Shown here: positions 11,479 through 43,583 of the stretch, in pieces
How positions within the stretch are numbered: position 1 is the first letter of the stretch
Layout of the letters: each line of letters starts with the position of its first letter
From: a virus
DNA length: 64,000 nucleotides
Virus record (IMG/VR): IMGVR_UViG_3300003629_000001
Reading direction: 5' to 3' (one strand)
Notes under the pieces: generated by a model
What the model was told of the DNA's origin: nothing
The model's input: only the letters and a program-made list of their open reading frames with translations
Database searches by the model: none
Position numbers and translations under genes: made by a program

Positions 11479-13518
11479 ATGAGCCAGCGTATAGAGAATC
11501 AGATACTCGCGGAGCGAGGATACGTGTGGCTCTCGAAGCAGGAGAACGAGTGGATTCCATACGTCGGGCCTGACGGTGGTGAAGGATGGCAACGTGTCGG
11601 TGACGACGAGGTGCGATACCAGCAACGACCGCCGGGAGAGACAGCCCAAGGTGTCGAAGAGAACTACTGGACTGACGATTTCGGCGCTGACGCACTTACC
11701 GAGTTCCTTTCAGAACGTCTTTCTGACGAGGATATGGGTCGTATCGGAGCGCGGGTTCAGGACGCCGCTGAAGCCATGAACTCCGATATAGACACCGAAG
11801 CAGGGTACGTATGGGGTCGTCTTCAGCACCGAGAAGAACGGTTCAATCAGCATTTGGGGGACGCGCCGGAAGGTGCGATAGTCGATTTAGTAGACAGTAT
11901 GCTTGGACGGCGAGAAGCGAAGTTCGCCCAGCGTCAGGAAATGGACGAACTCGCCATGCTGGTCGAAGATAACTCCGACATGGGAACCCGCGACAAACTG
12001 AATATCAGTGAAGCGGTGCGTGAAGTTCAGGACGATACCGACCTGACCGAAGAGGAACTTCGTCAAGACCTTTACGAAATGGTCGAAGACGCGGATATGC
12101 CAGCAGAGTACGTGCTGGATAACGCTGGCCTGAACGCGTGGAAAGACAGCAAACGGGCCGAGTGGCGAGACGAGAATCTGACTGGTGAAGACGCGATAGA
12201 AGTACCCGAAGGCCACGAAGGCGATATTACAGAGAGTGACGTTTTCGACGCGCTCAATCACACGTCGCTTTCCGGGTTCCAACTTCCGCTAAATGACCAC
12301 GACCCGATTCCCGCTGTCGCACAGGCTATGGAAGACCAGTTCGGGGACGACCCGAATAAGATGTACGACGAGATAGAAGCGTTCAACGGTGCTCTCGAAG
12401 GCATTCTCAAGCCGTTTAGTCAAACCAGTACGAACGCGCCGGAACACATGAACCCACAGAATGCCGACGAGGTGGGGAAACTGGATAAGTACACCGATAA
12501 GACCGGGCGGTCGTCTAGTTCCATGTTCGTTGCGAAAGGTGTCCCCGACGAAGACGGGAACAAGCGCGACCTGTATATCACGAACACCAACCGGAATCGG
12601 GAAGGGGCCTACGCACAAGACGACGCCGACGCCAACCGACAGATTCTCGGGTCGAACGGATTCCAAGCGGCGGGTTTTGATTCCCCTGACTCGTACCATG
12701 AACCGGGAGAGTTTTGGGCTGTCGAAGAGGCCCCCGGTGATACTGCTGACGAATTTCACGTCGAAAATGACCTTGACAATCCCGTAGAGCAATTCGCTGA
12801 ACTCGGAGCGGCGGCGGCTGTTCTCGGTGCATGGGACATTCACGAAGGGAACGTATTCATCCACGACGGCGAGTTCGTTCCAGTTGACATGGACTTGGCT
12901 GGTGCTGAACTTCACCACAGCGCCGACCACACGTTCAATCGGTATAACGCTGATTTGAATGGGTTCATGGGTCTATTTCCCCGTATGCAACGACTCTTTG
13001 ACCGCATGGACGGTGGTGATACTATCGACTTTGACGAGATAAAGCAAGCCACGAAACGTCGGGTGGCTGAAATGGGTGAGACGGGAGAGGCCAAGGAAAT
13101 CGCTGAAGCCGGAAAGAGCGACATTACACACTCAATCGGTCGGAACGTTGAAGCCAACGTTAGGGCTATTGAGAACCAGAACTACTTCGAGCGTTACCCA
13201 ACTGACGTGTTGGGAGTAAACGGATACGACGAAATGAGTGATTTCCGCGAGGGTCAGGTCGTAGAGGTGACAGAAGACGACCGAGAGCAAAGGAGTCAAG
13301 AGTTCGAGATTACCGAGACATACGACGACCACGTTGAAGTGACCGCCCTCGAAGACGGTGCGATTCTCGGTGAAGGTGAGCGGTGGAACGTTCACAACCC
13401 CGGTGAGATAACAGAAATCATCGACAGTGGGGGCGACGAAGAGGGCGACCCACCTGACCCGATTGACGCGCTCATGGACGAACTGGACGAGCGGCTGGAA
13501 GACGGTGATAGCGAATGA
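11479..13518 (+). CDS. Array protein 1: WIPY tag + helical domain + HipA/PI3K-like kinase + small beta-barrel
   Basis: Tag at 11551. Kinase motifs WDIHEGN and PVDMD at ~12830-12895. Confidence 0.75.
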   Translation: MSQRIENQILAERGYVWLSKQENEWIPYVGPDGGEGWQRVGDDEVRYQQRPPGETAQGVEENYWTDDFGADALTEFLSERLSDEDMGRIGARVQDAAEAMNSDIDTEAGYVWGRLQHREERFNQHLGDAPEGAIVDLVDSMLGRREAKFAQRQEMDELAMLVEDNSDMGTRDKLNISEAVREVQDDTDLTEEELRQDLYEMVEDADMPAEYVLDNAGLNAWKDSKRAEWRDENLTGEDAIEVPEGHEGDITESDVFDALNHTSLSGFQLPLNDHDPIPAVAQAMEDQFGDDPNKMYDEIEAFNGALEGILKPFSQTSTNAPEHMNPQNADEVGKLDKYTDKTGRSSSSMFVAKGVPDEDGNKRDLYITNTNRNREGAYAQDDADANRQILGSNGFQAAGFDSPDSYHEPGEFWAVEEAPGDTADEFHVENDLDNPVEQFAELGAAAAVLGAWDIHEGNVFIHDGEFVPVDMDLAGAELHHSADHTFNRYNADLNGFMGLFPRMQRLFDRMDGGDTIDFDEIKQATKRRVAEMGETGEAKEIAEAGKSDITHSIGRNVEANVRAIENQNYFERYPTDVLGVNGYDEMSDFREGQVVEVTEDDREQRSQEFEITETYDDHVEVTALEDGAILGEGERWNVHNPGEITEIIDSGGDEEGDPPDPIDALMDELDERLEDGDSE

Positions 13519-16202
13519 CAGAAATTGTTCGAGTCTACGACCGTGACGGTGGCGAGTTGGAAGCAAAGGCTGACGTAGGCCCTGACGGACGCCTGATTCG
13601 GGGTGACGAAGACTTTGCTGAAATCGCTACTCGGTTCCTCGAAGAGCGGAGCGTGGACGAGATACTGACGTATCTGGACGGCCCGCATATGCTGGCTATG
13701 GCGATTGACGTGGACGGCTTAGACTACGACCCCGGCCTTCAAGAGAAAATGGAAGGTCGCCGCGCCGCAAAAGAGACACACCACGTTCCTCACAGTACCC
13801 CTATTGAGAATACCGAGAGAACTCATTGGCTCACCGAACCCCGACTCGGGAAAGTCGGTTGGTACGACAGTGATACCGGTGCGTTCCTCTACAGGGGGGC
13901 CAGCGCCCGCGTGAGTGAGTTGCTGAAGAGTGAAGGCCCCACCAGCGGACTCGAAGAGACACAAACGTCGCTGGTGGACTGTCAGGGGCCGTCCAGCAAC
14001 CTTCTCAAGCAAGACGACGGTCAGTGGATTCCGTACAAGGGGCCACAGGAAGGCGAGGGGTGGCAACAGGTCGGTTCCGGCGAGGTGCGATACCAACAAG
14101 AGCCACCCGGTGACGTAGCGGACGGACATGAGGCCGACCACTGGAAACAACGCTGGCCGGAGATTGAGGGCGCGGAGTGGAACGAAGACGTTCCACACCC
14201 GATTGACATGAAAGAGGAAGACGCTCTTCTCTTCGTCAATCGGAACGGCGAGTCGGAAGTGGGCCGTTTCGAGAGTGCGACATTCATTCGTGACGAGAGT
14301 TGGGATAGTGCGAAGACAGGCGTCACTCTCGCTGACGGTCGTCAAGTTCTGACTGACGACATAGCCGCTCATGCGGATATGACTATGGCGGTCGAACCAC
14401 CGAGTCTTCACGGTGACGAAGAGTGGGGTGACGCCCCCGGAGTCTATTCAGATTACATTCCGTGGAATCTCGTTCACTTTGTGGATTCTGACGGTGAAGA
14501 GCGAGTGGCTATGGTCGAAGGACACGCCGACGACCGGGGTGCGGTGAAGGTGCAAACCAACGAGGGATACACGGTCGTTGACCCGAGTAACATTACTCAC
14601 TACGCCGAGGTTGACCAGTTCTATAACGGCGCTTACGAAGTGCTGGATAGTCCCTTCCGTGGGATTCCAGAGATAGAAGACAACGAACAACCCCCGGACG
14701 AGAACTTTGCACAGCGTGTCGGAGTCACGGCTGACGACGTGAACGCCGCGTTCCGAATGGTTTTTGCACCCCACCTTGTGAGCGTGCTTGAAAACGAAAT
14801 CGAAGAGGGTGGGTACGACGCTGACGACCCGGACGACATAATTCAGGCTATCATCGACGTTCGTGGGTCTGAAGACGACACGACGTGGCAATCATTCAAG
14901 CGAGAACTTCGAGGGCGTTCTGTTGGAATCGGGAAGAGCCGGGCGGAACGTATTGTTAACGAAGCCTTTGCTGGCGAAACCCCCGACCCGAGTTTCGCTG
15001 TTCGTCAGGATATGGACAGGATGGACGACCCGGAAGAGTGGCTGAAACAAGCCGCCAAATTCGCTCACGAAGACGAGTTCGTGTCTATCGCTTCGTTACA
15101 GGACGCGGTGGACGAGTGGAAGGGTGACGGTGTTCCATTCAATCTCAAAGGAATCCACGACTTCGACGGTGAACCCGACGAGGTGGTAGCCCTATCAGAA
15201 ACCGGGACGAACACCGGAATCTCCGCCGGGGCCATGTTCATTGCGGACTGGCCGGACGGTAGTAGGGCGTTCGTCACTCGAATCAAGGATAAGGAAACGG
15301 GCCGACTTGTGTCTAACGACCACATGGAAACGTCCGAAGAGGCCGAACGGGCTATGACTGGCTTCGGGATTCAGAACGAACTGGCTCAAGACAACGAGTC
15401 GATTCAGGTTCCCGACCACACGTACTCAATGGACGAGTATTTCAGCGTGAAGGGCGCTCCCAACGACGCGATACTCGCTGACCAGTTCCTTGAGACGTTC
15501 CCGAGTCAGGACATGGAATTGCCGGACGGCCCGCCTGATACGGATATTGTAGAGTCGGTTGGTGCGACGGTCGAAGACGTACAACAAGCGTTCAGTGAAA
15601 CGGTATATCCGGGCTGGGAAGACCACAACGAGACGAAACAAATCTTCCACAGTGACGACAATTTGGACGAAGAGAACTCACAGGACTGGGTGGCTGTCGC
15701 CAAAATCCGTTATGATAAACCCGACCCACGAATTTGGAACGAGTTCGCCCGTGAACTCGCTGGGTCAGCCTACGAAACGCCGGTTGAACGTGAGACGTTC
15801 ATGGACATGGCGTTCGGAGCGGTCATGGCTGGCAACAAAGATATGCACTCGAATAACGTTATGGCGGATAATGAGGGAACCGTCTACCCAATCGACTTGG
15901 ACTTTGCTGGGTACGACATGACCAACAGCCGCAATTTGAGCGCCGCTATCGGGAAACTCGTCAGTACCGGTCAGGCACTCGGAATCGAACCCAGTGAAGA
16001 GTTCGAGGATAAGGGGAACCCCGACGCTTTTGACGACTCGCAACACCCATTAGCACACGAAATCCTCGCGTATATCCACGACAACGCGACCGAGGAAACT
16101 ACGGAGAAGGTTCGGAGTGGGAATCCGATGTGGCGAGACGGTGGGGCTGACAACGTTGCTCGGAACGCGGAAGCGGCAAAGAACGGAGAACTCGAACTAT
16201 GA
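13515..16202 (+). CDS. Array protein 2: DGP domain + WIPY tag + SH3/KOW-like repeats + kinase
   Basis: N-terminal LDGPHMLA, tag at 14025, kinase motifs GNKDMHSNN and PIDLD. Confidence 0.75.
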   Translation: MTEIVRVYDRDGGELEAKADVGPDGRLIRGDEDFAEIATRFLEERSVDEILTYLDGPHMLAMAIDVDGLDYDPGLQEKMEGRRAAKETHHVPHSTPIENTERTHWLTEPRLGKVGWYDSDTGAFLYRGASARVSELLKSEGPTSGLEETQTSLVDCQGPSSNLLKQDDGQWIPYKGPQEGEGWQQVGSGEVRYQQEPPGDVADGHEADHWKQRWPEIEGAEWNEDVPHPIDMKEEDALLFVNRNGESEVGRFESATFIRDESWDSAKTGVTLADGRQVLTDDIAAHADMTMAVEPPSLHGDEEWGDAPGVYSDYIPWNLVHFVDSDGEERVAMVEGHADDRGAVKVQTNEGYTVVDPSNITHYAEVDQFYNGAYEVLDSPFRGIPEIEDNEQPPDENFAQRVGVTADDVNAAFRMVFAPHLVSVLENEIEEGGYDADDPDDIIQAIIDVRGSEDDTTWQSFKRELRGRSVGIGKSRAERIVNEAFAGETPDPSFAVRQDMDRMDDPEEWLKQAAKFAHEDEFVSIASLQDAVDEWKGDGVPFNLKGIHDFDGEPDEVVALSETGTNTGISAGAMFIADWPDGSRAFVTRIKDKETGRLVSNDHMETSEEAERAMTGFGIQNELAQDNESIQVPDHTYSMDEYFSVKGAPNDAILADQFLETFPSQDMELPDGPPDTDIVESVGATVEDVQQAFSETVYPGWEDHNETKQIFHSDDNLDEENSQDWVAVAKIRYDKPDPRIWNEFARELAGSAYETPVERETFMDMAFGAVMAGNKDMHSNNVMADNEGTVYPIDLDFAGYDMTNSRNLSAAIGKLVSTGQALGIEPSEEFEDKGNPDAFDDSQHPLAHEILAYIHDNATEETTEKVRSGNPMWRDGGADNVARNAEAAKNGELEL

Positions 16203-18751
16203 TAGTGTTTTACCGTCTCGAAGGTCGGGACTACAACGAAATCGGGCGTGTCGAAGACGGCGAAATCGTAGACGGCGAAGAGGAACTGGCTGGTATCGTT
16301 CACCCGCCGAACCTCTCCGACGAAGACGAACTACTCGCCGCTCATGACGGCCCACATATTCTCGCCCAAATGGAAGACGAGTCGCCCGGCGAGGGTGGTA
16401 CTGACGCTAATTCTGATAGGGGTACTGAAAAGTGGGTTCCATACACCAACGGCGACGAACGTGGGTGGATTAGTGCCAGCACTGGCGAGAAGAAATTCAC
16501 CGAGGAGGCCCCCGGCCCGATAGTGAAAGGCTTCGAGGAACAGGCGGAAAACTGGACGGAAGTAAAGACGTTGAATAAGGAGTGGATTCCGTATCAGGGG
16601 CCGCACGGGGGCGAAGGGTGGCAAGAGGTGGAGACTGGTGAGGTTCGCTACGTCGAAGAGCCGCCGGGGCGAGTTGGGACAGGTGATGGCGCTCCGCCCA
16701 GTGACGGCATGACGCCTGAAGAACGGGCGTGGCTGGAAGAGCATGGCGACCCGGAAGCACTGTCGGAGTTGGAAGAAGAGGCCCCTGACGGCACGACAGA
16801 AACGAGTGAAGAGATTACGTGGGACAACGTAGCCGCCGGTGACGAAATCGCCTACTACGATGACTACGGCGAACTACAGCAGGGAGAGGTAACTGCTGTT
16901 GAACAGGACGCGTTCGGTGTGATATGGGTTCAGGACGGTCACGGCAAATCGCCAGTCGAAGAAGAGGATTTCATTGGCACGCCGGACGACAAGATTGGCG
17001 ACGGACTCGAAGCACCTGACCACGCTGGCGCTGACTGGTTCGACAATAACCTGTTCTACGGTCAGACTATCAAACTCTACAACAAAAACACCGACATGGT
17101 GGAATACGCGGACGTAGAGAGTATCTTCGTTGCGGGTGGTGAAATCAACGCTGTCGAACTTGAAGTTCAGAATCAACGTGGATTTGGCGACCTTATTACT
17201 ATCACGAACGACGACATAGACTGGCATGACCAAGACGATAACGGGAAGTACGAAATACGAGAGACGAGTCGCTGGTCGGATTTAGAAAAGGACGAGCAAA
17301 TTGACGCTGTGAGACGTTCTTACCGTGAAAATACTCGTCTTGAGACGATGGGTCGGGCTACGCGGCAAAATCTGAATGACGATATTTCTGAAGATATTAT
17401 CCCCTCGTTTAAGGACATGAACGTCGCCCGTGAGACATTCAAGTCACTCTTCAAAATCGGGAACAAGGTATCCCGAGCGAGTTGTAGCGGAACGGGGAGT
17501 GTTTCAATCAAGGTGTCAGAACGAGCGCCTATCGACACGACGAGACACGAATTTGGACACGCTATCGTCAGTTCGTTCGGATATAATTACAAGAATCGTT
17601 ACAAAAATAGCAATTTCTCTGACGAGAAGTACAGGCGGCGTCCGACGAATTTGTCTCACGAGTATCATGACCTGAAGACCCGGTACGATACCATAGCGTT
17701 CGATTTCAGCGAAGATTCAGATTTCTTTGCCCCCGAAGACTATATGCTTCAGGATACCGACAACGACGGCGAGTTTGTAGACTTTGATTTTGACGAAATA
17801 GAGGCTGGAAGGAACATATACATCGAGCCGTCCGATACCTTCATGTCGAATGAGTCATACGAAATTGAGTCAGTTGGTGAAATGGAAGACGGTAAGTTAG
17901 AAATCCACACCAGTATGGCTCAAGACGCCTATGTTGATAGAGAGGGGACTGTCTATCAGTACGATTCGTTCGGTGGTGGATGGGAAGAGGTTGGGGAAGC
18001 AACCGCATTCACTCAAGAGAAACTACCGCACGGATTCGACGCGTGGAAAGACGCTGTAGAGGAAGAGGTTCACGGAGAAACCGATTTGGAACAGAGGGAG
18101 TACGAGAATACCGAGGGTATGTCGCCCAAAGACGTGTTCGAGTCGGTTGATAAGGGCGACGTAGTTCGGTTCCAGCACGAAGACAAGACGATTCACCTTA
18201 TTGCTCAAGAGAAAGAAAACCTCTCTCAAGAAGACCGGCGTGATTATGAGTTCGTTCACCCCGGCGACGGTTCACAGTGGAATTTCACCGTACAGAGTGA
18301 CAACGGTGAACTTCAGTTCTCTGACCACATTGTTACTGGGTACGACGATACATACGGCGAAGAAGACGGGGACAGCCCGAACGTGGATAATCCTCTTGAG
18401 AACTGGGAAGGGTTTGAGCCAAACCCTGAAACCACTGAACAGAGAATAGATAATTTAGTGTCAGCCGTGAACCGTGCGTGGTACAAGCAAGCCAAAATGT
18501 TCGAGAACGACCCTGCTGATTTCGGTAACAGCGCTTACAGTATTGGGTCGGGATACTCGGCCACAAATGCTCAAGAGACAATGGCGAAAACTCATGAGGT
18601 TTTACAGAACGGCGACCAGTTGGCAACCTCGCATTTGATTGAAGAACATCCGTATCTGGTTGCGGCTTATGTAGAACTGTTTGAGCCGCACTTGTACGCT
18701 AAAAAGGCGATTCATCGTCATGGCGGGGAAGAGTACGGGATAAAAGTATGA
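16199..18751 (+). CDS. Array protein 3: DGP domain + WIPY tags + zincin metallopeptidase
   Basis: N-terminal HDGPHILA, tags at 16433 and 16583, HEFGH at 17546, and downstream YSATNAQETMA (third-ligand motif of lethal-factor-like zincins). Confidence 0.7.
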   Translation: MIVFYRLEGRDYNEIGRVEDGEIVDGEEELAGIVHPPNLSDEDELLAAHDGPHILAQMEDESPGEGGTDANSDRGTEKWVPYTNGDERGWISASTGEKKFTEEAPGPIVKGFEEQAENWTEVKTLNKEWIPYQGPHGGEGWQEVETGEVRYVEEPPGRVGTGDGAPPSDGMTPEERAWLEEHGDPEALSELEEEAPDGTTETSEEITWDNVAAGDEIAYYDDYGELQQGEVTAVEQDAFGVIWVQDGHGKSPVEEEDFIGTPDDKIGDGLEAPDHAGADWFDNNLFYGQTIKLYNKNTDMVEYADVESIFVAGGEINAVELEVQNQRGFGDLITITNDDIDWHDQDDNGKYEIRETSRWSDLEKDEQIDAVRRSYRENTRLETMGRATRQNLNDDISEDIIPSFKDMNVARETFKSLFKIGNKVSRASCSGTGSVSIKVSERAPIDTTRHEFGHAIVSSFGYNYKNRYKNSNFSDEKYRRRPTNLSHEYHDLKTRYDTIAFDFSEDSDFFAPEDYMLQDTDNDGEFVDFDFDEIEAGRNIYIEPSDTFMSNESYEIESVGEMEDGKLEIHTSMAQDAYVDREGTVYQYDSFGGGWEEVGEATAFTQEKLPHGFDAWKDAVEEEVHGETDLEQREYENTEGMSPKDVFESVDKGDVVRFQHEDKTIHLIAQEKENLSQEDRRDYEFVHPGDGSQWNFTVQSDNGELQFSDHIVTGYDDTYGEEDGDSPNVDNPLENWEGFEPNPETTEQRIDNLVSAVNRAWYKQAKMFENDPADFGNSAYSIGSGYSATNAQETMAKTHEVLQNGDQLATSHLIEEHPYLVAAYVELFEPHLYAKKAIHRHGGEEYGIKV

Positions 18752-19734
18752 GACTCATAATCACCAACAACAACGACGAGGAACTGGGCGAGATACGGTC
18801 GAATTTCGAGTTCGAGGCTGATATTCCGTTCGAGGATAAGGAACGGATTCGAGCGCTCATGCGTTCAGCGAAGAAATTCGCTATGGACGTAGGGCCAGTT
18901 GAACGCTCCGGGGGCGCGGATGAACGCGAACTAATTACCCCCGGCGAAGAGGTCGTGGAGTTCGAGACGGACGAAGCACTTCCACGCGTCAAGGTCGCTA
19001 TTGACCGAATGACTCGGTATCATGCTGTCCTCGAAGAGACGGAAGAGCGTGAAGCAATCAAGGCTGTTGACGCTCCGTTCAACGCCCCGGATGGAAAGGA
19101 AGTACACGAAGGGCCGCCCGGATTCTTCTACTACAACGTCAGTAAGGATACTGAAGAATCAGGGGATGGTGAGGTGTTGGAAGTTCGGGATTACTACCGA
19201 GTGTGGGTCAACGACCAAGATAGCGTTCCTGACGACAGCATGGCGCTCTACGACGAAGAGGGCGACCCGGCTGGAAATCACTGGTACTACGAAGTACCGT
19301 TCGAGACGAAGACGCGAATCAATCTTTCCGAGCATGAAGTTGACCCGTCGAATGTGATAGAAAAGGACGCTGACGTTGAACTCTCACCTGACGAACTGAA
19401 CGAGTACGGTATTTGTAAGTCGGATAACGAACGGATACAGGAAGCCAGTGAAGCCGTTGAAAAAGGTGAGCCGGTGTGGGGCGATACTCATTCGGTGAGT
19501 GGGGCTGTTCTCAAGTCAGTAGAGTGTCCGTCGGTGTTGCTCTGTCTCTATAAGTTGTTTCACAATGCTGGCGACGAGTACACCCAATATCTCCCACCGA
19601 TTCAAACTGAACTCAATCACCGTGGCGTCAAGGCGATAGATAAAATTACACGGAAGAAGCGAGATTTCGGTCAAGCGACCGACGACGTGACGCTCGAAAA
19701 GAGCGGCGATTGGCTTGAGTTCGAGCGAGAGTAG
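18748..19734 (+). CDS. Array protein 4: hypothetical; N-terminus is a candidate peptidase inhibitor
   Basis: Coupled by ATGA to the zincin gene. Contains APDGKEVHEGPPGFFYY, a possible tag variant. Confidence 0.6.
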   Translation: MRLIITNNNDEELGEIRSNFEFEADIPFEDKERIRALMRSAKKFAMDVGPVERSGGADERELITPGEEVVEFETDEALPRVKVAIDRMTRYHAVLEETEEREAIKAVDAPFNAPDGKEVHEGPPGFFYYNVSKDTEESGDGEVLEVRDYYRVWVNDQDSVPDDSMALYDEEGDPAGNHWYYEVPFETKTRINLSEHEVDPSNVIEKDADVELSPDELNEYGICKSDNERIQEASEAVEKGEPVWGDTHSVSGAVLKSVECPSVLLCLYKLFHNAGDEYTQYLPPIQTELNHRGVKAIDKITRKKRDFGQATDDVTLEKSGDWLEFERE

Positions 19735-19804
19735 TTTAACCGGTTCTTCCCGAAAGGTCTTACAGTAGGGGTATCAACAGTATTAACAAGAGGCCACTAT
19801 CCCC

Positions 19805-20602: not shown

Positions 20603-20607
20603 CTGTA

Positions 20608-31319: not shown

Positions 31320-33652
31320 CCGTCACCTTCTACGAACTCGGTGAAAACGACTACACCGAAATTGGTCGTATCCACGACGGAGAAATCGTAGACGGCGAAG
31401 ACCAACTGGTCGCAATCGGCGCTGACCAGTTCGCGGACAACGAAAAGAAACTACTGAACGTCTACGATGGGCCGTACATCGTTGCTGGAATTGGGACGCC
31501 TAATACCCTTACTCAAAAGTCGGACAAGGCACTTCGGAAGAGCGTCGAAACAGTCTTCAAAGACTGGATTCCCTACGAGGGGCCACAGGGCGGGGAAGGC
31601 TGGCAAAACACCCTGACAGGCGAAATCCGCTATCAGGAAGGGAAGCCGAGTGGCGCGGGAAGTGACGCCGACGTTACTGTCCCCGGCAACTCTACGATAC
31701 AGACTGTCTCGGCGGCTATCACGTCAGTCCTCGGCGCGACAGTCATGCAATCGCTCAAGCAACAGGCGACCGGTGGCGGTGGGTCATTCAACCCACAGAC
31801 GTTCGTGACCGCCGCCGCCATGTATATCGCACAGACTGGTAAGGGGTCGCTCGGAGAACTACAGGAAGCGTTGGATACCGAAGCCGAGAGCGAACCCGAA
31901 GACGCTCAAGACGTGACGATTCAGACCGAGAGTGGCGAAATCGAATCTACGACTCAAACGGGTGTCACCGACGTAACGAGCGCGATTACACAAGTCTCGT
32001 CGGAAGAGACGGTCGCTCGTCTCGGCATGACCATGAGCGAGGAAGAGAAGGAAGACCCCGAAGCGTGGATTCGGGCGTTTGGTGATAGCGTTACTGAAGA
32101 AGCCAACCAGAACTTCCAAGACGCTCTGGACGAGCGGATTCGTGAACGGACGGTTTCGACTGACAAGTACCGGGGTGGTGTCGTTGTTCCGAACGAGGTG
32201 ACGACGGAACAGGTGAGAGAGGCTATGGGAGCGACGATGGACGCCGAGACGGTAGAATGGCTGTCCGGGGCTATGGAAAACAGCCCCGCCGTAGACGGGA
32301 ACGACCCCGACTCATGGGTACGGGCGGCTCTCACACAGATTGGTGACGATAGCGAACAACGTACCGAGTTCCAGAACCAGTTCGACGTTTCCGCCGCTGT
32401 ATCCGAAGAGGGTGACGGCGACGTTGGGACTGTCACCATGTCGGGTGGCGGTGAGAGTATCGAAATGCCGACGAACACCAGCGCTGAAGAGGCACGGGCC
32501 GCTGTCGAAGAGACGCTGGGTCAGGACTTTCTCACCCACACAGCGGGCTTCATGGAAGACCAAGGCGCGGACGTAGAAGACCCGAAGCAGTGGGTCATGA
32601 ACGGGCTGACGCTCTCTCAAATCGCCAACCCGGAAGGCTTCGAGACGACTGTCAGCGAAATGCAAGACAGTCTGATTGAAACCAACGAGGAACCCGAAGA
32701 GAGCCGGGCGACTCAAGTCGTGACGGAACACGACGCCGAGGGTGACTGGCAATCATTCGTAGACCCAGTGACCGACCTGCTGGAAGAGGGCGAGAGCGCT
32801 GGCGACATTGTTCAGAGTCTCAAAGAAGACGCCGAAATCGACGGCCACCCGCTTCAAGACGAGCAAATTCGGACACTCGCGTTCGAGGCTCACAAGGAAG
32901 CCAGCGAGCGGAATCCGCCCGGTGTAGACGAGACACCGGACACGCCGTCGCTCGCTATGGACTGGGGTAACGAGTTCCCTGAAGCCATGCGCGACCGTAT
33001 GCAAGAGAACCACCCCGAAGCCTACGAGCAACTGAACGAGTCCTTTGAACCGTGGTCAGACGACCCCCACAGCGAGGAAATGAACTCGTTCTGGAACTAC
33101 GCGGTTCAGCACAGTGGGAACGGGAACATTCCCGAAATGGAAGGCCGCCCGGAGAACGTCACGCAAGAAGAGGTAGAGGCCGTACAACGGCTACACGAAG
33201 TGACACAGGATACGCTCACCGAACTCTACGGGGACACCGTACCGCTCTTCCGTCCGGTGGGTGGAAGCGCCGCGAGTGAACTCAAAAACGCAAAGGAGAG
33301 CGACGAAGACGACGATATTCAGTTCACCCACCGCCCGGCTGAATCGTGGTCGGGCGACATTGAGCAAATCGCGCAACGGACAGACTTTGAAGACGGTGAA
33401 TCGGTTGTCATTCGACGCGAAGTACCTACGGAAGACGTACTGGCGTCGTCTGTTACCGGGTCGCCGGGACTGGACGCACAAGACAACGAGTTCGTCGTCT
33501 CGTCGCCAACAGAGACGGAGTACAAACGAGGTGACGTGTTGACTGGCGACGACCTGAAAGACCCACAGGCAACGATGGAACAGGCGGCGTGGGCGAATAA
33601 GACCACTGGCGGGACGGAGCAAACGGAAGCAAACGAGGAAGGTGGAGAGTAA
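31316..33652 (+). CDS. Array protein 8: DGP domain + WIPY tag + helical repeats + divergent ART-like domain
   Basis: YDGPYIVA, tag at 31565, VPLFRP..ESWS..VVIRREVP..DNEFVV. Confidence 0.7.
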   Translation: MTVTFYELGENDYTEIGRIHDGEIVDGEDQLVAIGADQFADNEKKLLNVYDGPYIVAGIGTPNTLTQKSDKALRKSVETVFKDWIPYEGPQGGEGWQNTLTGEIRYQEGKPSGAGSDADVTVPGNSTIQTVSAAITSVLGATVMQSLKQQATGGGGSFNPQTFVTAAAMYIAQTGKGSLGELQEALDTEAESEPEDAQDVTIQTESGEIESTTQTGVTDVTSAITQVSSEETVARLGMTMSEEEKEDPEAWIRAFGDSVTEEANQNFQDALDERIRERTVSTDKYRGGVVVPNEVTTEQVREAMGATMDAETVEWLSGAMENSPAVDGNDPDSWVRAALTQIGDDSEQRTEFQNQFDVSAAVSEEGDGDVGTVTMSGGGESIEMPTNTSAEEARAAVEETLGQDFLTHTAGFMEDQGADVEDPKQWVMNGLTLSQIANPEGFETTVSEMQDSLIETNEEPEESRATQVVTEHDAEGDWQSFVDPVTDLLEEGESAGDIVQSLKEDAEIDGHPLQDEQIRTLAFEAHKEASERNPPGVDETPDTPSLAMDWGNEFPEAMRDRMQENHPEAYEQLNESFEPWSDDPHSEEMNSFWNYAVQHSGNGNIPEMEGRPENVTQEEVEAVQRLHEVTQDTLTELYGDTVPLFRPVGGSAASELKNAKESDEDDDIQFTHRPAESWSGDIEQIAQRTDFEDGESVVIRREVPTEDVLASSVTGSPGLDAQDNEFVVSSPTETEYKRGDVLTGDDLKDPQATMEQAAWANKTTGGTEQTEANEEGGE

Positions 33653-35394
33653 TGGTGAAAATCGACGCGTCGGAGTACGAGACGAACTGGCTCACTGACA
33701 GTCCCGAAAAGGAAGGTCAGCCGAACGACGACGAGGAAGTGGCGGAGTCTGACAGTACCCCTACTGAAGAAAATCAGGCCCAGCAAGCCACGAAGGCGCT
33801 CAAGTCCGCTTTGGATTCTACCTTCGAGAAAGACGAGTGGATTCCCTATGAAGGGCCGGAAGGTGGTGAGGGGTGGCAAAATACTCAAGACCCGGACGAT
33901 ATTCGATATGGACTTGACGAACCGCCGGGTGAAGTAGCCGATGGGTACGAAGAGCAAGCGGAAGACTGGGGTGAGAGCAACGAGGAAGACAACGAAGACG
34001 GCGGTTCAGAACTCGGGAACTTCCTTGACGAACTCAGTCATACAGAGGCCAAAGAACCAATTGAACAGGATATACACTCGGTAGCGTCGGATACCGATAC
34101 CAGCCCCGAAGAGGTTGCTGGTCGCCTTCACGACCGACTTGAGCAACGCCAAGACCGAATCGGGAATTTAGACCAAGCCAACACCGAGCAATTTTCCGGG
34201 TTGGCGAACTCTATGCTCGAAAACATCGGGGAAGAGATAATCGAAGAGCGTAACCGAGATGAGTTGACGGAAGCGGTCGAAGGATACGACGAACTCACCT
34301 CTACGAAGGTCACGAATCATTACATCGACAGTGCGGTCGAACAGGTTCAGGAATCGACTGACTGGGGACGTGACGAACTTCGCCAAGACCTACTATCGCA
34401 CCTCGGAGAAGAGGGCGTTGACCCCGAAATCGCGCTGGACGAAGAGGAAGGGTTGGAAGAGTGGGCTGAAGCCAAAATTCAAGAAGCCGAGGAAGGCGCT
34501 GACGCTCCGTCTGACGTTCCTGACGGCTGGGGGAAACCCGAGGAAGTGACGTTCGGAGAATGGACGGAGTTCGAGCAAGGTGACGCCCAGTTCCTCGAAC
34601 ACGGTGATAGGGTTACTGGTACTCGCAACGGCGACGAGTTCGAGGGAACGGTTCGACACACTCCCGAAGACGGACTGGTCGGTATCGAAATGGACGAAGG
34701 TCACGTTCAGACAGTCGAAACGTGGGATATAGACCAGTACCAGAGTCAAGACCGTGACTTGGACGAGACACGCGACGAACTCCGTGACCACTTCAGCAAT
34801 ATCAGCCAGCACAACCAGTCGCTACAAGAGTACACGGGCCAAGCCCACCGAGAAATCAACGGCCATATGCGAGATACCGCGAAAGAGGTAGAAGCGGACT
34901 CGAAGGGGAAACTCGAACACGCTATTATGGCTACTGCTGACGCTGATACCGCTCGGGTAATCAGCGACGTGCAAGCGGCGACAAAACAGACACTCCCCCG
35001 AGAAATGAACGTCGCTCGGGGTATCGACGTGGACGCTGGGTCGTTCATGGACAAGGCTGAAGAGGCTATGGAATCGGGCGGAGCGCTCATGGACGAAGGC
35101 TTCCAAAGCGCGACGATTGACCGAGACGTGGCGGAAGGCTTCGGCAACATCACACTGGACATTCAGACCGACCACGGCGTCTACGCACGGGCCGCCAGCG
35201 AGTTCGCTGGGGAAGACGAAGTGCTACTCCCCGCCGGGACGCAATACGAGGTGAAAGACGTTGACAGGGAGAACAACACCGTCAGCGTCGAAGCCTACGG
35301 CGGATTCAGTTTCAACGTGGACGTGGGCCACGTTCGGGAACTGATTCACGAAGAGGGAATGTCCTACGAAGAGGCAATGGAATATGTCAGATAG
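33652..35394 (+). CDS. Array protein 9: WIPY tag + helical domain + VIP2/C3-like ADP-ribosyltransferase
   Basis: Tag at 33838. YT..INGHMR..VARG..DEGFQSAT..EDEVLLPAG gives the R-S-E triad. Confidence 0.85.
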   Translation: MVKIDASEYETNWLTDSPEKEGQPNDDEEVAESDSTPTEENQAQQATKALKSALDSTFEKDEWIPYEGPEGGEGWQNTQDPDDIRYGLDEPPGEVADGYEEQAEDWGESNEEDNEDGGSELGNFLDELSHTEAKEPIEQDIHSVASDTDTSPEEVAGRLHDRLEQRQDRIGNLDQANTEQFSGLANSMLENIGEEIIEERNRDELTEAVEGYDELTSTKVTNHYIDSAVEQVQESTDWGRDELRQDLLSHLGEEGVDPEIALDEEEGLEEWAEAKIQEAEEGADAPSDVPDGWGKPEEVTFGEWTEFEQGDAQFLEHGDRVTGTRNGDEFEGTVRHTPEDGLVGIEMDEGHVQTVETWDIDQYQSQDRDLDETRDELRDHFSNISQHNQSLQEYTGQAHREINGHMRDTAKEVEADSKGKLEHAIMATADADTARVISDVQAATKQTLPREMNVARGIDVDAGSFMDKAEEAMESGGALMDEGFQSATIDRDVAEGFGNITLDIQTDHGVYARAASEFAGEDEVLLPAGTQYEVKDVDRENNTVSVEAYGGFSFNVDVGHVRELIHEEGMSYEEAMEYVR

Positions 35395-36400
35395 TGAAAA
35401 ATACACAGCGGAAGGCGAAGACATTCGAGTCGTTGGCCCCGAGTGGGGCGAAGAAGACGAGGAAGTGACCACCGAGAAGAACTGGATTCCATATCGCGGC
35501 CCACAAGGCGGCGAAGGCTGGCAAGACACACAGAATCCTAACGACGTTCGGTACGACCTTGACGAACCACCGGGGACAGTGGCCGCTGGGTATAGCGAAG
35601 ACCACTGGGAAATGGACGACCGAAGCACCAGCGTCGAAGACAGTGAAATGGGCTACGTCTCTGAAGGTGCTGGTGGGCCGTCTCTGGACGTTGCCACTGC
35701 TGACCACGCACAGTCCTTACACGAAGCCGGAGCGTCAGAGGGCGCGTCCTCGCGCCATATGCACGTTGCTACGTGGGAGTCCGAAGACGGAGAGCCACGC
35801 CGAGCGTTCGTAACGAACTACGGGCCGGACATGAGACGGAACGAGACAGGCGAGAAACCGCTATTAGGTGAGCGTGCAATCGCCGCTGACGCGTTCTTCC
35901 GCAACATGGGATTCGACCCGCCAAAGCACTTCCTGAACCGCCAGCAACGCTATCTCGCGGTCGAAGGCAAGGACGGGAAGGAAGTACGACACGCTCCCGA
36001 CGAGTGGAAAGAGAACATCGACCGCGACGGAGTGCTGAATTTCGCCGCAACAGCGATTATTGCTGGCAACTCCGACCTTCACCCGAAGAACGTGCTGGTC
36101 AACGAGAACGGTGAGTTCTTCGCGGTGGACTTGGACAAGTCGGGTGGAGATTTCGCTAACGGCCCCGACCGGTTCCAACGCCGTGGATTCCAGTCGATTA
36201 CGTGGACAGCCCGAAACCTCGGTCATAGTCTCTCAAAGGAAGAAATCGACCAACGCGCACAGGAGTTGTGCCGAGATATGGATATTGACCGAATGACCGA
36301 GAACGTTCAAAACAGTACGTGGTCACGGAAAGGCCGACACCAGTTCCGTGATAACATTATTACCAACATTAAAGCACTACGCGAAGGAAGCCTACTGTAA
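35384..36400 (+). CDS. Array protein 10: WIPY tag + HipA/PI3K-like kinase
   Basis: Tag at 35483, kinase motifs GNSDLHPKNV..AVDLD. Confidence 0.8.
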   Translation: MSDSEKYTAEGEDIRVVGPEWGEEDEEVTTEKNWIPYRGPQGGEGWQDTQNPNDVRYDLDEPPGTVAAGYSEDHWEMDDRSTSVEDSEMGYVSEGAGGPSLDVATADHAQSLHEAGASEGASSRHMHVATWESEDGEPRRAFVTNYGPDMRRNETGEKPLLGERAIAADAFFRNMGFDPPKHFLNRQQRYLAVEGKDGKEVRHAPDEWKENIDRDGVLNFAATAIIAGNSDLHPKNVLVNENGEFFAVDLDKSGGDFANGPDRFQRRGFQSITWTARNLGHSLSKEEIDQRAQELCRDMDIDRMTENVQNSTWSRKGRHQFRDNIITNIKALREGSLL

Positions 36401-39400
36401 TGGCTGTCGTTATCGAAGAGTTCGACATAGGAGATATGTCGTGGTCTACCCTCGGTCGCATTGAAGATGGGGAAATTGTGGCCGACGGCGACGGGTTCCT
36501 TTCCGAACTCCTTTCTGACGACGAACTCGGTGACGAAGACGAACTACTGAATCGGTTCAACGGCCCGCGTCTTGTCGCCTATCGTGATAGGGGTACTCTC
36601 GGGAAAAACTGGATTCCGTATCAAGGGCCGATGGGTGGCGAGGGGTGGCAAAACGCGAACGACCCTGACGATATTCGCTACGTAGACGACCCACCCGGAG
36701 AAATCGAAGAGGGGTACGAGGAACAGGCGGAAGGGTGGGGTGAGAGTGACCAAGAGCGTTTTGTCAACGCTGTGGAAGAAGAATACGGAGTTTTCGCCAG
36801 TTCCCTCGCCAACGCGTTCACCGAAGAGACGGTTCTGAAAGACCCCTACGATTCGGGCTACGTAAAACTCGCCGCGAAGGTGGTCTTTGGTGAAAATTAC
36901 CCGGACGAGTCGGTTGCGGAATACTACGAAGAGTTTCGAGAACTCACGAATCTGGATACCATTCAGACGCCGCGAGAAGCGACGATGGACGTTATAGCGG
37001 CAATTGACGAACTCGAACCCACCAAGTCGCAAAAGAATCAGGCACTTGACGCGTTGCGTGACCGGTACAATATCATGCAATCCGCTGACGGGTTGCCTCA
37101 AGTACCGCTGGAAGACAAGGGGCCAAGGGACTGGAAAGAACACGTCCCCGGTCGTGGCGAAGATTACGACTGGGGGACAGTGAACACGCAAGACGCTGTT
37201 CTCTATCAAACCGAAGACGGCCTCATGAATGGCCGAATCTGGAAGTATGAGGGCGAAGACGACCAAGACGTACTCTACACACTGGAAAACGGCGAGACTC
37301 TGTATCACGAAGAGATTGAGGCGTTCTACCCCAACGAGAAAGAAGCGCTCCGGGTCGGTTCAAACGCTCGCGTTTCCGAGGGCAACTTCCTCACTTTCGA
37401 GATTGACGGAACCCCGTATCAAGGAGAAGTATCGACAATTGCGGCGCGTGACGGTCAAAGAGTCGAAGCACTGATTTCGACGCCGGGGGCTATGGTTCGA
37501 CTTTCATCTACTACTGAAGAAGGCCGTGACCCACAACTTGAGTCCGTTCAGGGTGACGACATAGAAATCATCGAACGACAACGAACCCTTCCTGACGATT
37601 TTGAGGGAATGGCGGAAGGCGTCAATCGGGAAGCGGACGCGGTTGCACGCGACATTACGGATAATCTCGGTGACGAGTGGCATAGAAGTATGTCGCTTGA
37701 GCGAGACGTGCAAAATGAGTTAGAGAAATACTTCTCTTCGACCGCTGTCAGTCAGTTTTACGAAGCCGTCAACGACTGGAAACAGGACGCTTCAAGTGGC
37801 CTCTCCGGCCTTCACGCGTCGTCTTTCCAAGAAGCGCTGGATATACACAGCCCCGCTCGCGGGTGGGACGAACCCAGCAAAGAGAACGTTCAGGTAGCGA
37901 AGGTCATGTACGAAGTGAGTCAGGAATACCTGAAAAAGACTCACGGAAGTAGCGTTCGCTTACACCGAGGAATGTCTAACACCGGATTCCGTCGGTTGAT
38001 GGACACATGGTTAGAGAACCCGAACGCTGACGAATACGACTTGAGTCAAATGGCGTTGAACAACTATACGCCACAGGTGGGTATTGCTGAAGGATTCGCA
38101 CACGATACGGCTGTCGTCACCAGTCGTGTCAGTACAGACAATATCGCGTTCGCTATGGACGCCCTCGCCGCTCGCTCAATGGACAACGAAGGCGAGGTTC
38201 ACGTCATGGGCGACGGTATGACGGTTGACCACAGCGATATTGCGTTCGGTGAACACCGAATCGAACTTGACGAGTTCCCCGACGGCTGGTCGCTTGAAGA
38301 GCATGAAGACATGGTGGAACAACTCAAGCACCACTACGCTGGTCGAATGCCGCTTCCGAAAGAAAGCCACGAAGAAATCTTCCAGAAGTGGGCGGAATCA
38401 GTCAAAGAGAACCACCCCGAACTGGTCGAAGGCCCGAATCCCAACCCCGAGATACAAGAACTCGTCAAGACAATCGAAACTGACGCATTCCTACAGTACG
38501 AGGTTCGACAAGGGCCACAGACCCAACTGGACGAGTTCGAGGATAAGCAGGACTCGAACCCAGTTATCGACCTAACTGACGACGCGTCCGCTCGGTGGTC
38601 GGCCTATGACCCCGCCGAGATTCCCGACACAGTGAAAGAGACGAAATGGAACCAGTACCGGAACTGGCAACAGAGTCTACAGGAGAAATCCAGTAGCCCC
38701 ATTGGAAAAGCGTGGATTCCCTACGAAGGCCCGCGAGGTGGGGAAGGTTGGCAAAGTGCGAACGACCCGAACAAAGTCGTCTACCAGCAAGAGCCGCCGG
38801 GGGAAGTGGCCGACGAGTACGACGCCGACCACTGGGAAGAGTATCCGAGTGACGGTAACTGGCCCGAATCGCCACACGGAACGCCGTGGGAACAGCCACA
38901 GGGCTTCGGACGAGACGCGGGTATGCAACTCACCGACGCGGTGGCGTTTATCAACTACGACGACGAGGTAGTGGCTGGCGAAATTGCGGAGTTCAACGAC
39001 GACGAGAAGACGTACAAACTCGAAAATGGCTACGTAATCAGCCACAGTCAGGTCGTCGGCTGGTCGCAACCGCCCGAAGGTGAGCGCGTCGAAACGTCTG
39101 TTGGTATGGTTACTGAAGGCGACTGGATTACCTACGACACGTCCTACAGCGAAGACCACGTTGCACAGATTTCCGACATAGAAATCAACGACGACAAAGA
39201 CATTATCTCGGTCGTTGGGGAACACGGTTATTACGAGATTGAGGTGTCCGGGCGTCCGAACAACCGCAACGAGTTCAACGCTAAAGTTCAGCGTATCCAC
39301 ACCGAGGAACCCGACCTGTTCGAGAACGTCGAACAGAATGGCATGGCTATGGAAACCGACGATATTGTCGGTGAAATGAGCGAGCGAATCGACCTGAAAG

Positions 39401-41226: not shown

Positions 41227-41267
41227 CCAACCAAATCTTCTTGACTGTCGCCATACTGTTGTACGGT

Positions 41268-41987: not shown

Positions 41988-42005
41988 TCCGATTCAAGAA
42001 CACGC

Positions 42006-42018
42006 CGAAACTTTAATA
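42006..42018 (+). promoter_or_regulatory. Haloarchaeal BRE/TATA promoter (leaderless)
   Basis: CGAAACTTTAAT about 24 nt upstream of ATG 42041. Confidence 0.5.
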
Positions 42019-42040
42019 GGATTATAGATTCCATGTCTAC

Positions 42041-42694: not shown

Positions 42695-42826
42695 GTGGCT
42701 TGTTAATAGCCGCCTAAAATGTTGAATCGGCTTCTCGAAATCTGAACTATGGGCACTTTTATAAGATACTAATTCTATAATGTAGGCTGTGGCAATGAGC
42801 GTATTGCCAAGAAGGTTCAAACAAGA

Positions 42827-43453: not shown

Positions 43454-43583
43454 TTTTTCTTACCGCAACCATTTGCACCAATACGCCTAATAGCGGAAGC
43501 GCTATTCTGGTTGACTACCCATTCCCGTATAGGGGAAGACTTATGTTGATAGGGGTACTACTAATACATACGAGGTGCTTGAA

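What the first reader, a model, noticed from the sequence alone, without database searches (positions are those of the whole stretch)
13515..36585. Daisy-chained immunity: a ~60-aa DGP domain starts every gene that follows a kinase gene (5 of 5)
Seen: a homologous N-terminal domain (h-h-Y....E-h-G..DGE-h...[DN]GP-x-h-h-A) begins genes 13515, 16199, 24738, 31316 and 36400. In each case the overlapping upstream gene (11479, 13515, 20608, 24738, 35384) has a kinase as its last enzyme. Genes that follow the zincin or an ART (18748, 33652, 35384) lack it. Inference: this is the cognate kinase antitoxin, fused to the next effector rather than encoded alone. Gene n+1 would neutralise gene n, with stoichiometry fixed by ATGA/TAATG coupling, and Lys sites after the domain would allow its removal.
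Basis: partly seen in the sequence, partly recalled or inferred. Interest (0 to 1): 0.95.

Follow-up and report, generated by a model that had tools for sequence, protein, structure and literature searches.

The report
Viral kinase inhibitor domain, daisy-chained
In a salt-loving archaeal virus, every gene that ends in a kinase is followed at once by a new ~60-residue domain that is predicted to plug that kinase's active site; this looks like a new toxin/immunity-type pair, here fused to the next effector protein.

Summary
The window is the head module of a 100-kb haloarchaeal siphovirus related to HCTV-1. Between the portal gene and MuF lie about 30 kb of giant modular effector genes.

- **In this genome:** a profile finds exactly five DGP domains, all at residue 1 of a gene. 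It also finds exactly five kinase domains. Each is the last enzyme of the gene that overlaps the start of a DGP gene.
- **In other haloviruses:** 27 of 27 DGP domains follow a kinase gene, and 27 of 29 kinases are followed by DGP. Seven of these DGPs are stand-alone ORFs of 58-74 aa.
- **Folds:** the kinase has a protein-kinase-like fold with a DxHxxN...D catalytic core. DGP folds confidently (pLDDT 93), has no Pfam family and resembles no known fold.
- **Complex prediction:** the model supports binding (score 0.80, best control 0.01). The invariant G-P...A of DGP lies against the Gly-rich loop, beta3, the hinge, the catalytic loop and the metal-binding Asp.

Best reading: DGP is a cognate, cleft-occluding kinase inhibitor. 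Inhibition, cleavage at Lys and capsid packaging are inferred, not shown. A few cellular homologues lack a neighbouring kinase. The scan also noted this stretch in an overlapping window of the same genome, but on no other DNA.

The parts
13515..13712 (+). DGP domain 1 (g13515 aa 1-66), follows the kinase of g11479
   Evidence: profile hit E 1.9e-23 and 1.5e-15; ATGA overlap with the g11479 stop
16199..16378 (+). DGP domain 2 (g16199 aa 1-60), follows the kinase of g13515
   Evidence: E 1.0e-30; ATGA overlap
24738..24926 (+). DGP domain 3 (g24738 aa 1-63), follows g20608, whose last enzyme is a kinase
   Evidence: E 9.4e-29; ATGA overlap
31316..31495 (+). DGP domain 4 (g31316 aa 1-60), follows the kinase of g24738
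   Evidence: E 1.3e-30; ATGA overlap
36400..36585 (+). DGP domain 5 (g36400 aa 1-62), follows the kinase gene g35384; this copy was folded and docked
   Evidence: E 5.1e-27; TAATG junction; model pLDDT 93; complex score 0.80 against 0.01 for the best control
12445..13218 (+). kinase domain of g11479 (aa 323-580)
   Evidence: kinase profile E 1.4e-77; GNxDxHxxN...D.D motif
15177..16193 (+). kinase domain of g13515 (aa 555-893, with a large insert)
   Evidence: E 2.7e-68
23380..24084 (+). kinase domain of g20608 (aa 925-1159); about 220 aa of barrel-like sequence follow it
   Evidence: E 6e-70; weak LSM/SM-like hits on the tail
30570..31316 (+). kinase domain of g24738 (aa 1945-2193)
   Evidence: E 1.7e-88
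35681..36394 (+). kinase domain of g35384 (aa 100-337); this copy was folded
   Evidence: E 3.4e-80; kinase part modelled at pLDDT about 90; 259 Foldseek PDB matches at E<=1e-3, the listed ones all protein or lipid kinases (Rio1/2, PI3K, EphA, PRPK)
11479..41226 (+). array of 11 tightly coupled acidic effector genes carrying 16 copies of a ~45-aa W-I-P-Y-x-G-P-x-G-G-E-G-W module
   Evidence: ORFs; all-against-all BLAST and module profile
40819..41049 (+). MuF (minor head protein) domain at the C-terminus of g36400
   Evidence: Pfam Phage_Mu_F E 1.2e-6; 46% identity to HCTV-1 gpF-like gp108; PHROG head morphogenesis families
8025..10184 (+). portal protein, upstream boundary of the head module
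   Evidence: 53% identity to the HCTV-1 portal gp105; weak Pfam Phage_portal hit
45376..47319 (+). head maturation protease (a candidate processing enzyme for the cargo)
   Evidence: phrog_23555 E 1.4e-103; weak Peptidase_S78 hit

Best explanation
The DGP domain is a cognate partner of the atypical protein-kinase-like effector domain encoded just upstream. It most likely acts as an inhibitor that sits in the nucleotide and catalytic cleft.

The kinase is always the last enzyme of its polypeptide. Translation then restarts at an overlapping ATGA or TAATG and makes DGP. DGP is either a free ~60-aa protein, as in several other haloviruses, or the first domain of the next effector polyprotein, as in all five cases here. 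In this genome, protein n+1 would therefore hold the kinase of protein n inactive in the virus-producing cell.

The array lies between the portal gene and MuF, next to a head maturation protease. The proteins are therefore probably capsid cargo delivered with the DNA. Separation of the two chains would then free the kinase in the next host. This could happen by proteolysis at the conserved Lys before the following module, or by unfolding during ejection.

Shown here:
- the domain exists and has a confident fold;
- it is strictly N-terminal;
- it is almost always adjacent to a kinase gene, across deep divergence;
- the kinase has a protein-kinase-like fold.

Supported by a model only: binding, and the location of the interface.

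Inferred: inhibition, packaging, processing and release.
For: Counts in this genome: exactly five DGP and five kinase domains, paired 5 of 5.

Exhaustive profile search of 1.84 billion proteins: 56 hits. 51 are true hits and all start at residues 1-5. About 20 are 58-90 aa long.

Metagenomic halovirus contigs:
- 27 of 27 DGP domains start within -4 to +53 nt of the stop of a kinase-bearing ORF.
- 27 of 29 testable kinases are followed by DGP.
- Seven DGPs are stand-alone ORFs. In L064 the DGP is the last gene before the strand switches, so it belongs with the kinase and not with a downstream protein.

Divergence: the pairs persist although kinases have diverged to 16-33% identity and DGPs to 16-42%. 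Kinase and DGP distances correlate (r 0.60, Mantel p about 2e-4).

Kinase fold: Foldseek gives 259 PDB matches at E<=1e-3. Those listed are all protein or lipid kinases. G120, D231, N236 and D249 are invariant and H233 and D251 nearly so.

DGP fold: pLDDT 93.

Complex prediction: the model supports binding but does not show it. The score was 0.80 (three runs: 0.81, 0.73, 0.80) and the best of three controls scored 0.01. That mark was reached by 58 of 80 solved complexes and by 2 of 110 mismatched pairs; these counts hold only roughly because my own alignments were used. The runs share at least 73% of their contacts and the partner's pLDDT is at least 84.

Interface: kinase residues 110-128, 140-144, 193-203, 231, 233-236, 248-251, 271 and 274. 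By the order of secondary-structure elements these are the Gly-rich loop, beta2/beta3, the hinge, the catalytic loop and the DFG-equivalent. On the DGP side the interface is residues 7-15, 31-37 and 50-62. This includes G55, P56 and A60, which are invariant in 24 distinct DGPs.

Memory is unlikely to explain the pass, because DGP has no solved relative.

Precedent: HipS inhibits the HipT kinase by inserting a residue into the active site (PMC10627512, abstract).
Against: - No experiment has been done. Binding is a model's confidence and inhibition is read from the predicted position.
- Only one pair was modelled.
- Two kinases lack a following DGP: L061_563, whose catalytic motif is intact, and the divergent L056.
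- Homologues exist without a kinase. One follows a PIN gene in a haloarchaeal chromosome, and tandem pairs occur in five other genomes.
- The kinases have Thr at the usual beta3 Lys position and no invariant Lys or Arg (position 140 is R or K in 16 of 24). They may therefore not be conventional kinases.
- The ART and zincin domains of the same array have no comparable partner. Why only the kinases would need one is unexplained.
- Packaging into capsids is inferred from gene position only.
Confidence: 0.6

Rival explanations
1. DGP is an obligate activating or stabilising subunit, or a chaperone, of the kinase. It would complete or hold open the active site, or be needed for folding in high salt, rather than inhibit.
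For: The adjacency and the binding prediction fit this reading equally well. The kinases lack the canonical beta3 Lys and any invariant basic residue, so a partner that supplies something to the site is conceivable. DGP position 57, next to the invariant G-P, is often R, H or Y and touches the catalytic loop.
Against: Position 57 is not conserved (H, Y, R, Q, V, N, G, A, M, F), so it cannot be a supplied catalytic residue. The predicted contacts cover the Gly-rich loop, beta3, the hinge and the DFG-equivalent together, which is where the nucleotide would lie. Downstream, translationally coupled small partners of toxic enzyme domains are typically immunity proteins (MuF polymorphic toxins, PMC5576092, abstract).
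Confidence: 0.17
2. DGP is a docking domain. It tethers protein n+1 to the kinase end of protein n so that the cargo assembles as a chain for co-packaging, and any effect on activity is incidental.
For: In this genome all five DGPs are fused to the next large protein, which would give a physical chain of up to three links (g11479-g13515-g16199; g20608-g24738-g31316; g35384-g36400-MuF). The last link ends in MuF, a head protein.
Against: Seven stand-alone DGP ORFs of 58-74 aa tether nothing. In L064 the DGP ends the operon. The predicted interface is the catalytic cleft, not a peripheral surface. Docking would not explain why only kinase ends are used.
Confidence: 0.12
3. DGP is a general N-terminal leader of the downstream protein, for example a capsid-targeting or export signal. 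It sits after kinases only because an ancestral gene of the form DGP...kinase was duplicated in tandem.
For: g13515 and g24738 carry both a DGP start and a kinase end. 8 of 51 database homologues do too. DGP is always at residue 1.
Against: 43 of 51 DGP proteins have no kinase of their own. Stand-alone DGPs sit between a kinase gene and a next gene that has its own different leader (L007, L009). 27 of 27 adjacency holds across lineages with under 30% kinase identity. Genes of the same array that do not follow a kinase lack DGP but still carry the WIPY module. The binding prediction also argues against it.
Confidence: 0.04

Closest known systems
MuF polymorphic toxins of temperate phages with downstream immunity genes (Jamet et al. 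2017, PMC5576092)
   Same: Phage head-module proteins that carry variable toxic enzyme domains, linked to MuF. A small cognate protective protein is encoded immediately downstream of the toxin domain.
   Different: In that family MuF is N-terminal, with a single C-terminal toxin and a separate immunity gene. Here MuF is at the C-terminus of the last gene and there are eleven genes with many enzyme units. Only the kinases have the partner, and the partner is fused to the next effector. The host is an archaeon. The DGP family has no Pfam or PHROG family and no fold match.
Polyvalent proteins of phages and conjugative elements (Iyer et al. 2017, PMC5512222)
   Same: Very large multidomain proteins encoded near portal/terminase genes that combine ART, zincin peptidase, kinase and MuF domains. 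They are proposed to be packaged and delivered with the DNA.
   Different: That paper says almost all examples over 1,000 aa are bacterial, and its kinases are a Verrucomicrobia/Bacteroidetes clade. The phrase 'immunity protein' does not occur in its text. Here there are 1,377-, 1,608- and 2,193-aa proteins in an archaeal virus, together with a dedicated kinase partner domain.
HipBST toxin-antitoxin system: HipS neutralises the HipT kinase (PMC10627512)
   Same: A small protein inhibits a HipA/PI3K-type kinase (DxHxxN loop) by reaching into the active site.
   Different: [quoted passage not shown] DGP is an unrelated fold, is always downstream, has no HTH partner, and sits in a virus structural module. 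No HipA Pfam match was found for these kinases.
Phage T4 Alt and other capsid-packaged, injected host-modifying enzymes
   Same: Enzymes made late, packaged in the head and injected to act early in the next cell (as summarised in PMC5512222). An ART domain is present here too.
   Different: I know of no inhibitor partner described for such cargo (my own knowledge, not searched exhaustively). Packaging is not shown here.

Membership tests
Protein-kinase-like superfamily (upstream domain) | Bilobal protein-kinase-like fold | tested here: met
   The kinase part of the g35384 model has pLDDT about 90. Foldseek gives 259 PDB matches at E<=1e-3. Those listed are Rio1/Rio2, PI3K, EphA, PRPK and Myt1 kinases.
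Protein-kinase-like superfamily (upstream domain) | Catalytic Asp and Asn in the catalytic loop, plus a metal-binding Asp | tested here: met
   D231, N236 and D249 are invariant in 24 distinct sequences. H233 and D251 are nearly invariant.
Protein-kinase-like superfamily (upstream domain) | ATP-anchoring Lys on strand beta3 | tested here: inconclusive
   The aligned position is T144 in most sequences. R or K occurs at position 140 on the same strand in 16 of 24. No invariant basic residue exists.
HipA family (Pfam HipA_C) | Sequence membership in the HipA_C profile | tested here: not met
   No HipA hit was found even at E<=10; only weak CotH and DUF4135 hits appeared. The profile against PDB gives only the PI3K catalytic loop at E 0.13.
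HipA / PI3K / PI4K type kinases | D-x-H-x-x-N spacing of the catalytic loop | tested here: met
   The G-N-x-D-x-H-x-x-N motif is present in all five window copies and in nearly all others.
Toxin-immunity pair of the polymorphic-toxin type | Small partner encoded immediately downstream of the toxic domain | tested here: met
   5 of 5 in this genome, 27 of 27 DGPs elsewhere, and 27 of 29 kinases.
Toxin-immunity pair of the polymorphic-toxin type | Partner binds the toxic domain | tested here: inconclusive
   The complex prediction supports binding (score 0.80, best control 0.01). A model's confidence is not a measurement.
Toxin-immunity pair of the polymorphic-toxin type | The domain is toxic and the partner rescues | not testable with these tools
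   This needs expression in Haloferax or E. coli.
MuF polymorphic toxins | N-terminal MuF followed by a C-terminal toxin | tested here: not met
   MuF lies at residues 1474-1550 of the 1,608-aa g36400, after two enzyme units.
Polyvalent proteins (Iyer et al. 2017) | Many effector domains (ART, peptidase, kinase, MuF) in giant proteins of the head/packaging neighbourhood | tested here: met
   ART (Pfam, E 6e-11) and MuF; an HEFGH motif; the kinase fold. The array lies between portal and MuF, protease and MCP.
Known domain families (DGP itself) | Match to any Pfam or PHROG family or to a solved fold | tested here: not met
   No Pfam or PHROG family hit on the full DGP-bearing proteins and no Pfam hit for 31 isolated DGP sequences. 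PHROGs was not run on g36400 or on the isolated domain. No Foldseek PDB match at E<=1e-3. Best VIA-align Z is 3.1. The ESM Atlas searches were uninformative.

The most novel reading that the evidence does not exclude
The kinase effectors of these archaeal viruses travel as self-locked cargo. Each kinase is plugged by a new inhibitor domain carried on the next cargo protein, so the head content assembles as non-covalent chains anchored to MuF. The kinases are unlocked only when the chains are pulled apart or clipped during delivery into the next host. This would be a delivery-triggered activation switch with no described counterpart in phage biology.
Probability: 0.25. Interest if true: 0.9.

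Novelty: new variant of a known kind. Interest (0 to 1): 0.78.

Why it matters
It defines a previously undescribed ~60-residue domain family with no Pfam family and no fold match, and it gives that family a specific, testable role as the dedicated partner of an atypical kinase family in haloarchaeal tailed viruses.

It shows that an archaeal virus can devote about 30% of its genome to giant 'polyvalent' effector proteins, a theme so far documented almost only in bacteria.

It suggests a way for viruses to carry dangerous enzymes safely: the inhibitor is made by coupled translation and can be fused to the next effector.

If inhibition is confirmed, it adds a new protein inhibitor scaffold for PI3K/HipA-type kinases and a handle for studying what archaeal viruses inject into their hosts.

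Tried and rejected
- **Searches for related loci in IMG/VR:** Single proteins found no relatives. The exact WIPY DNA pattern found nothing in viral contigs. A relaxed pattern in metagenome contigs worked.
- **tblastn of a DGP+WIPY N-terminus against 50,697 phage records:** no match.
- **HCTV-1 gp106/gp107/gp109:** gp107 looked DGP-like by eye, but neither the DGP nor the kinase profile is significant there. Only half of the WIPY module matches. HCTV-1 is therefore not informative.
- **Family and fold searches for DGP:** Pfam, PHROGs, Foldseek PDB, VIA-align wide and the ESM Atlas gave no family and no fold.
- **Repeat-protein hits:** five hits of the profile search (P0007, P0011, P0035, P0044, P0045) were rejected as false.
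- **Solved structures:** phmmer of g35384 against PDB sequences found nothing.
- **g31316 C-terminus:** its ART identity could not be verified.
- **Pseudokinase test:** I asked whether kinases without a DGP are pseudokinases. This was rejected for L061_563, whose motif is intact. L056 has Ser in place of His233.
- **Literature:** the HVTV-1 virion proteomics paper is not held. No paper combines haloarchaeal virus, protein kinase, ART and capsid.
- **Earlier scan notes:** a word search found no related finding on other DNA.


Full report
**What the window is.** The window is bases 28361-92360 of a 100,408-bp IMG/VR virus record judged 98% complete. [quoted passage not shown] Its portal is 53% identical to HCTV-1 gp105. 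The proteins are strongly acidic, with 20-27% Asp plus Glu, as expected for a haloarchaeal virus.

The gene order on the + strand is:
- terminase at 6000;
- HNH at 7460;
- portal at 8025;
- HNH at 10181;
- a DUF192 protein at 10720;
- eleven tightly coupled genes from 11479 to 41226;
- HNH at 41241;
- after four short ORFs (41241-44435, none with a structural-family hit), a head maturation protease at 45376 (phrog_23555, E 1e-103);
- the major head protein at 47231.

The last gene of the array, g36400, ends in a MuF domain (Pfam E 1.2e-6; 46% identity to HCTV-1 gp108). The array therefore sits inside the head-morphogenesis module.

**Anatomy of the array.** All-against-all BLAST shows that the genes are built from repeated units. 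A ~45-residue module (W-I-P-Y-x-G-P-x-G-G-E-G-W-Q ... I-R-Y ... P-P-G-E) occurs 16 times. It usually stands at the start of a unit that continues with variable sequence and one enzyme domain. In the g35384 model the module forms a small three-stranded sheet.

Verified enzymes are an ADP-ribosyltransferase in g33652 (Pfam E 6e-11) and five paralogous kinase domains (below). g16199 has an HEFGH zincin motif. Most of the rest has no Pfam or PHROG family.

The first ~60 residues of g13515, g16199, g24738, g31316 and g36400 are homologous. A profile finds exactly these five in the genome, all at gene starts. A profile of the upstream domain finds exactly five copies: in g11479, g13515, g20608, g24738 and g35384. 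Each is the last enzyme of the gene that overlaps the start of a DGP gene, through ATGA four times and TAATG once. The genes that follow the zincin gene, g31316 and the ART gene (g18748, g33652, g35384), as well as g19805, g20608 and g11479, have no DGP.

**The upstream domain is a kinase-like enzyme.** The five copies share G-N-x-D-x-H-x-x-N followed by D-x-D. Sequence searches give only weak hits to the PI3K catalytic loop and to CotH. The predicted structure of g35384 (kinase part at pLDDT about 90) matches protein and lipid kinases: 259 PDB chains at E<=1e-3, with Rio1/2, PI3K, EphA and PRPK among those listed.

The D-x-H-x-x-N spacing is that of the PI3K/PI4K/HipA group. Membership of the HipA family itself is not supported. 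The usual beta3 lysine position holds Thr, so the chemistry may be unusual.

**DGP is a new, strictly N-terminal domain.** An exhaustive profile search of 1.84 billion representative proteins gave 56 hits. Five are repeat proteins and false. The other 51 all carry the domain at residues 1-5 to about 60 of proteins 58 to 2,193 aa long. About 20 of the 51 are only 58-90 aa long.

The C-terminal parts of the longer proteins are varied: zincins, ART-like domains, MuF directly (P0042), or kinases (8 of 51). The domain has no Pfam family. It folds with high confidence (pLDDT 93) as three strands, three short helices and a fourth strand. It has no meaningful structural neighbour.

**The association with kinases is general.** A degenerate DNA pattern for the WIPY module retrieved 43 hypersaline metagenome contigs. 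Ten look-ups of database hits added further loci (L007-L009, L060-L066).
- In this material, every DGP domain with upstream sequence (27 of 27) begins within -4 to +53 nt of the stop of an ORF whose last recognisable domain is the kinase.
- 27 of 29 kinases with downstream sequence are followed by DGP.
- The two exceptions are L056, a divergent kinase with 410 aa after it, and L061_563. The catalytic motif of L061_563 is intact, and the next gene carries a similar kinase that is itself followed by DGP.
- Seven of the DGPs are separate ORFs of 58-74 aa. In L007 and L009 the next gene has its own, different leader before its WIPY module. In L064 the DGP is the last gene before the strand switches.

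These cases show that DGP belongs with the kinase, not with whatever follows. The pairs persist at kinase identities of 16-33% and DGP identities of 16-42%. The two distance matrices correlate (r 0.60, Mantel p about 2e-4). Shared ancestry contributes to that correlation, so it is consistent with co-inheritance but is not proof of co-evolution.

**Predicted complex.** The kinase domain of g35384 (residues 100-338, with a 14-row alignment) was modelled with the DGP of g36400 (31-row alignment).
- **Verdict:** the model supports binding; it does not show it.
- **Score:** 0.80 (three runs: 0.81, 0.73, 0.80), with the best of three controls at 0.01.
- **Calibration:** that mark was reached by 58 of 80 solved complexes and by 2 of 110 mismatched pairs. 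These counts hold only roughly here because my own alignments were used.
- **Consistency:** the runs agree in at least 73% of their contacts, and the partner's pLDDT is at least 84.
- **Memory:** DGP has no solved relative, so a pass from memory is unlikely.

The confident kinase contacts are residues 110-128, 140-144, 193-203, 231, 233-236, 248-251, 271 and 274. By the order of secondary-structure elements in the model and the standard kinase layout, these are the Gly-rich loop, strands beta2 and beta3, the hinge, the catalytic loop and the DFG-equivalent. Together they form the walls of the nucleotide and substrate cleft.

On the DGP side the contacts are residues 7-15, 31-37 and 50-62. G55, P56 and A60 are invariant in 24 distinct DGPs, and they touch residues that are invariant in the kinases. 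The residue after G-P is variable, so it is neither a supplied catalytic group nor a conserved phospho-acceptor.

**Interpretation.** The simplest reading is a cognate, cleft-occluding inhibitor that is made by coupled translation right after its kinase. This is the grammar of toxin-immunity pairs in polymorphic toxin systems, including MuF toxins (PMC5576092). The HipS-HipT pair, in which a residue is inserted into the active site, offers a mechanistic precedent (PMC10627512).

What is unusual is that in this genome the inhibitor is always fused to the next effector. That would give non-covalent chains: g11479-g13515-g16199, g20608-g24738-g31316 and g35384-g36400(MuF).

Three observations make proteolytic separation plausible, but none tests it:
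- a head maturation protease is encoded nearby;
- Lys stands two residues before the module's Trp in 8 of 15 window copies and 39 of 75 metagenome copies;
- Lys makes up only 3.1% of these proteins.

Packaging is inferred from gene position and from the polyvalent-protein precedent (PMC5512222).

**Limits and counter-evidence.** Nothing here measures binding, inhibition, toxicity, processing or packaging. Only one pair was modelled.

DGP relatives also occur in cellular haloarchaeal DNA without kinases. One close homologue directly follows a true PIN gene near integrases (L008). Five of 401 Halobacteria genomes carry a tandem pair of distant DGP-like ORFs. The fold may therefore be a more general small binding or antidote module.

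Why the ART and zincin domains have no such partner remains unexplained.

**Verdict.** The feature is real and highly non-random. It is a new domain family whose link to an atypical kinase is conserved across diverse haloarchaeal viruses. It is best explained as a kinase inhibitor of the immunity type, here daisy-chained onto the next effector. The concept of an effector plus a downstream immunity protein is known. The domain, the archaeal-virus setting, the size of the array and the fusion arrangement are new.

Noticed in passing
window 11479-41226 (e.g. 36604-36750): A ~45-aa module (W-I-P-Y-x-G-P-x-G-G-E-G-W-Q...I-R-Y...P-P-G-E) occurs 16 times and heads almost every enzyme unit. It is modelled as a three-stranded sheet. 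Lys stands at -2 of the Trp far more often than chance allows. It may be a cargo tag or a protease recognition unit. It has no known family.
   Followed up: partly
L019 1112-1500; L061 2141-2300 and 453-800: Other haloviruses use a different short module (T-P-E-G-V-P-D-G-Y-E-Y-V...G-G-T-Y) in the same position as the WIPY module, also after DGP. HCTV-1 gp106 and gp109 have similar motifs.
   Followed up: no
window 13219-13515 and 24085-24738: After the kinases of g11479 and g20608 come one to three small barrel-like repeats (D-F-Q-E-G-Q-E-V-T-V type; weak LSM/SM hits). Both genes, and g24738, end in G-D-(S)-E just before the DGP start.
   Followed up: no
L008 5624-6207 (haloarchaeal chromosome CP195595.1): A close DGP homologue (68 aa) overlaps the stop of a true PIN-domain gene, in an island with two integrases. 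It may be a PIN/DGP toxin-antidote pair with no kinase involved.
   Followed up: partly
L011 1249-1677, L012 1256-1707, L014, L015, L016: Five of 401 Halobacteria genomes carry a conserved tandem pair of ~65-aa DGP-like ORFs. Two of them (L011, L012) have an uncharacterised ~460-aa ORF just downstream. No kinase lies within 1.5 kb.
   Followed up: partly
window 7460-8023, 10181-10765, 41241-41987: Three HNH homing-endonuclease-like genes are interspersed in the head module. Such genes were reported as abundant in HVTV-1 and HCTV-5 (PMC3950731).
   Followed up: no
window 10720-11475; P0029 residues ~780-880: A DUF192 protein is encoded just before the array. In a related metagenomic protein (P0029, 1,391 aa), a DUF192-like stretch and an HD-like stretch lie inside a DGP...kinase polyprotein.
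   Followed up: no
window 36400-41226: g36400 carries two weak DRAT-like ADP-ribosyltransferase matches (residues ~500-610 and ~1120-1195) before its C-terminal MuF. This is the reverse of the MuF-toxin order described for bacterial prophages.
   Followed up: partly
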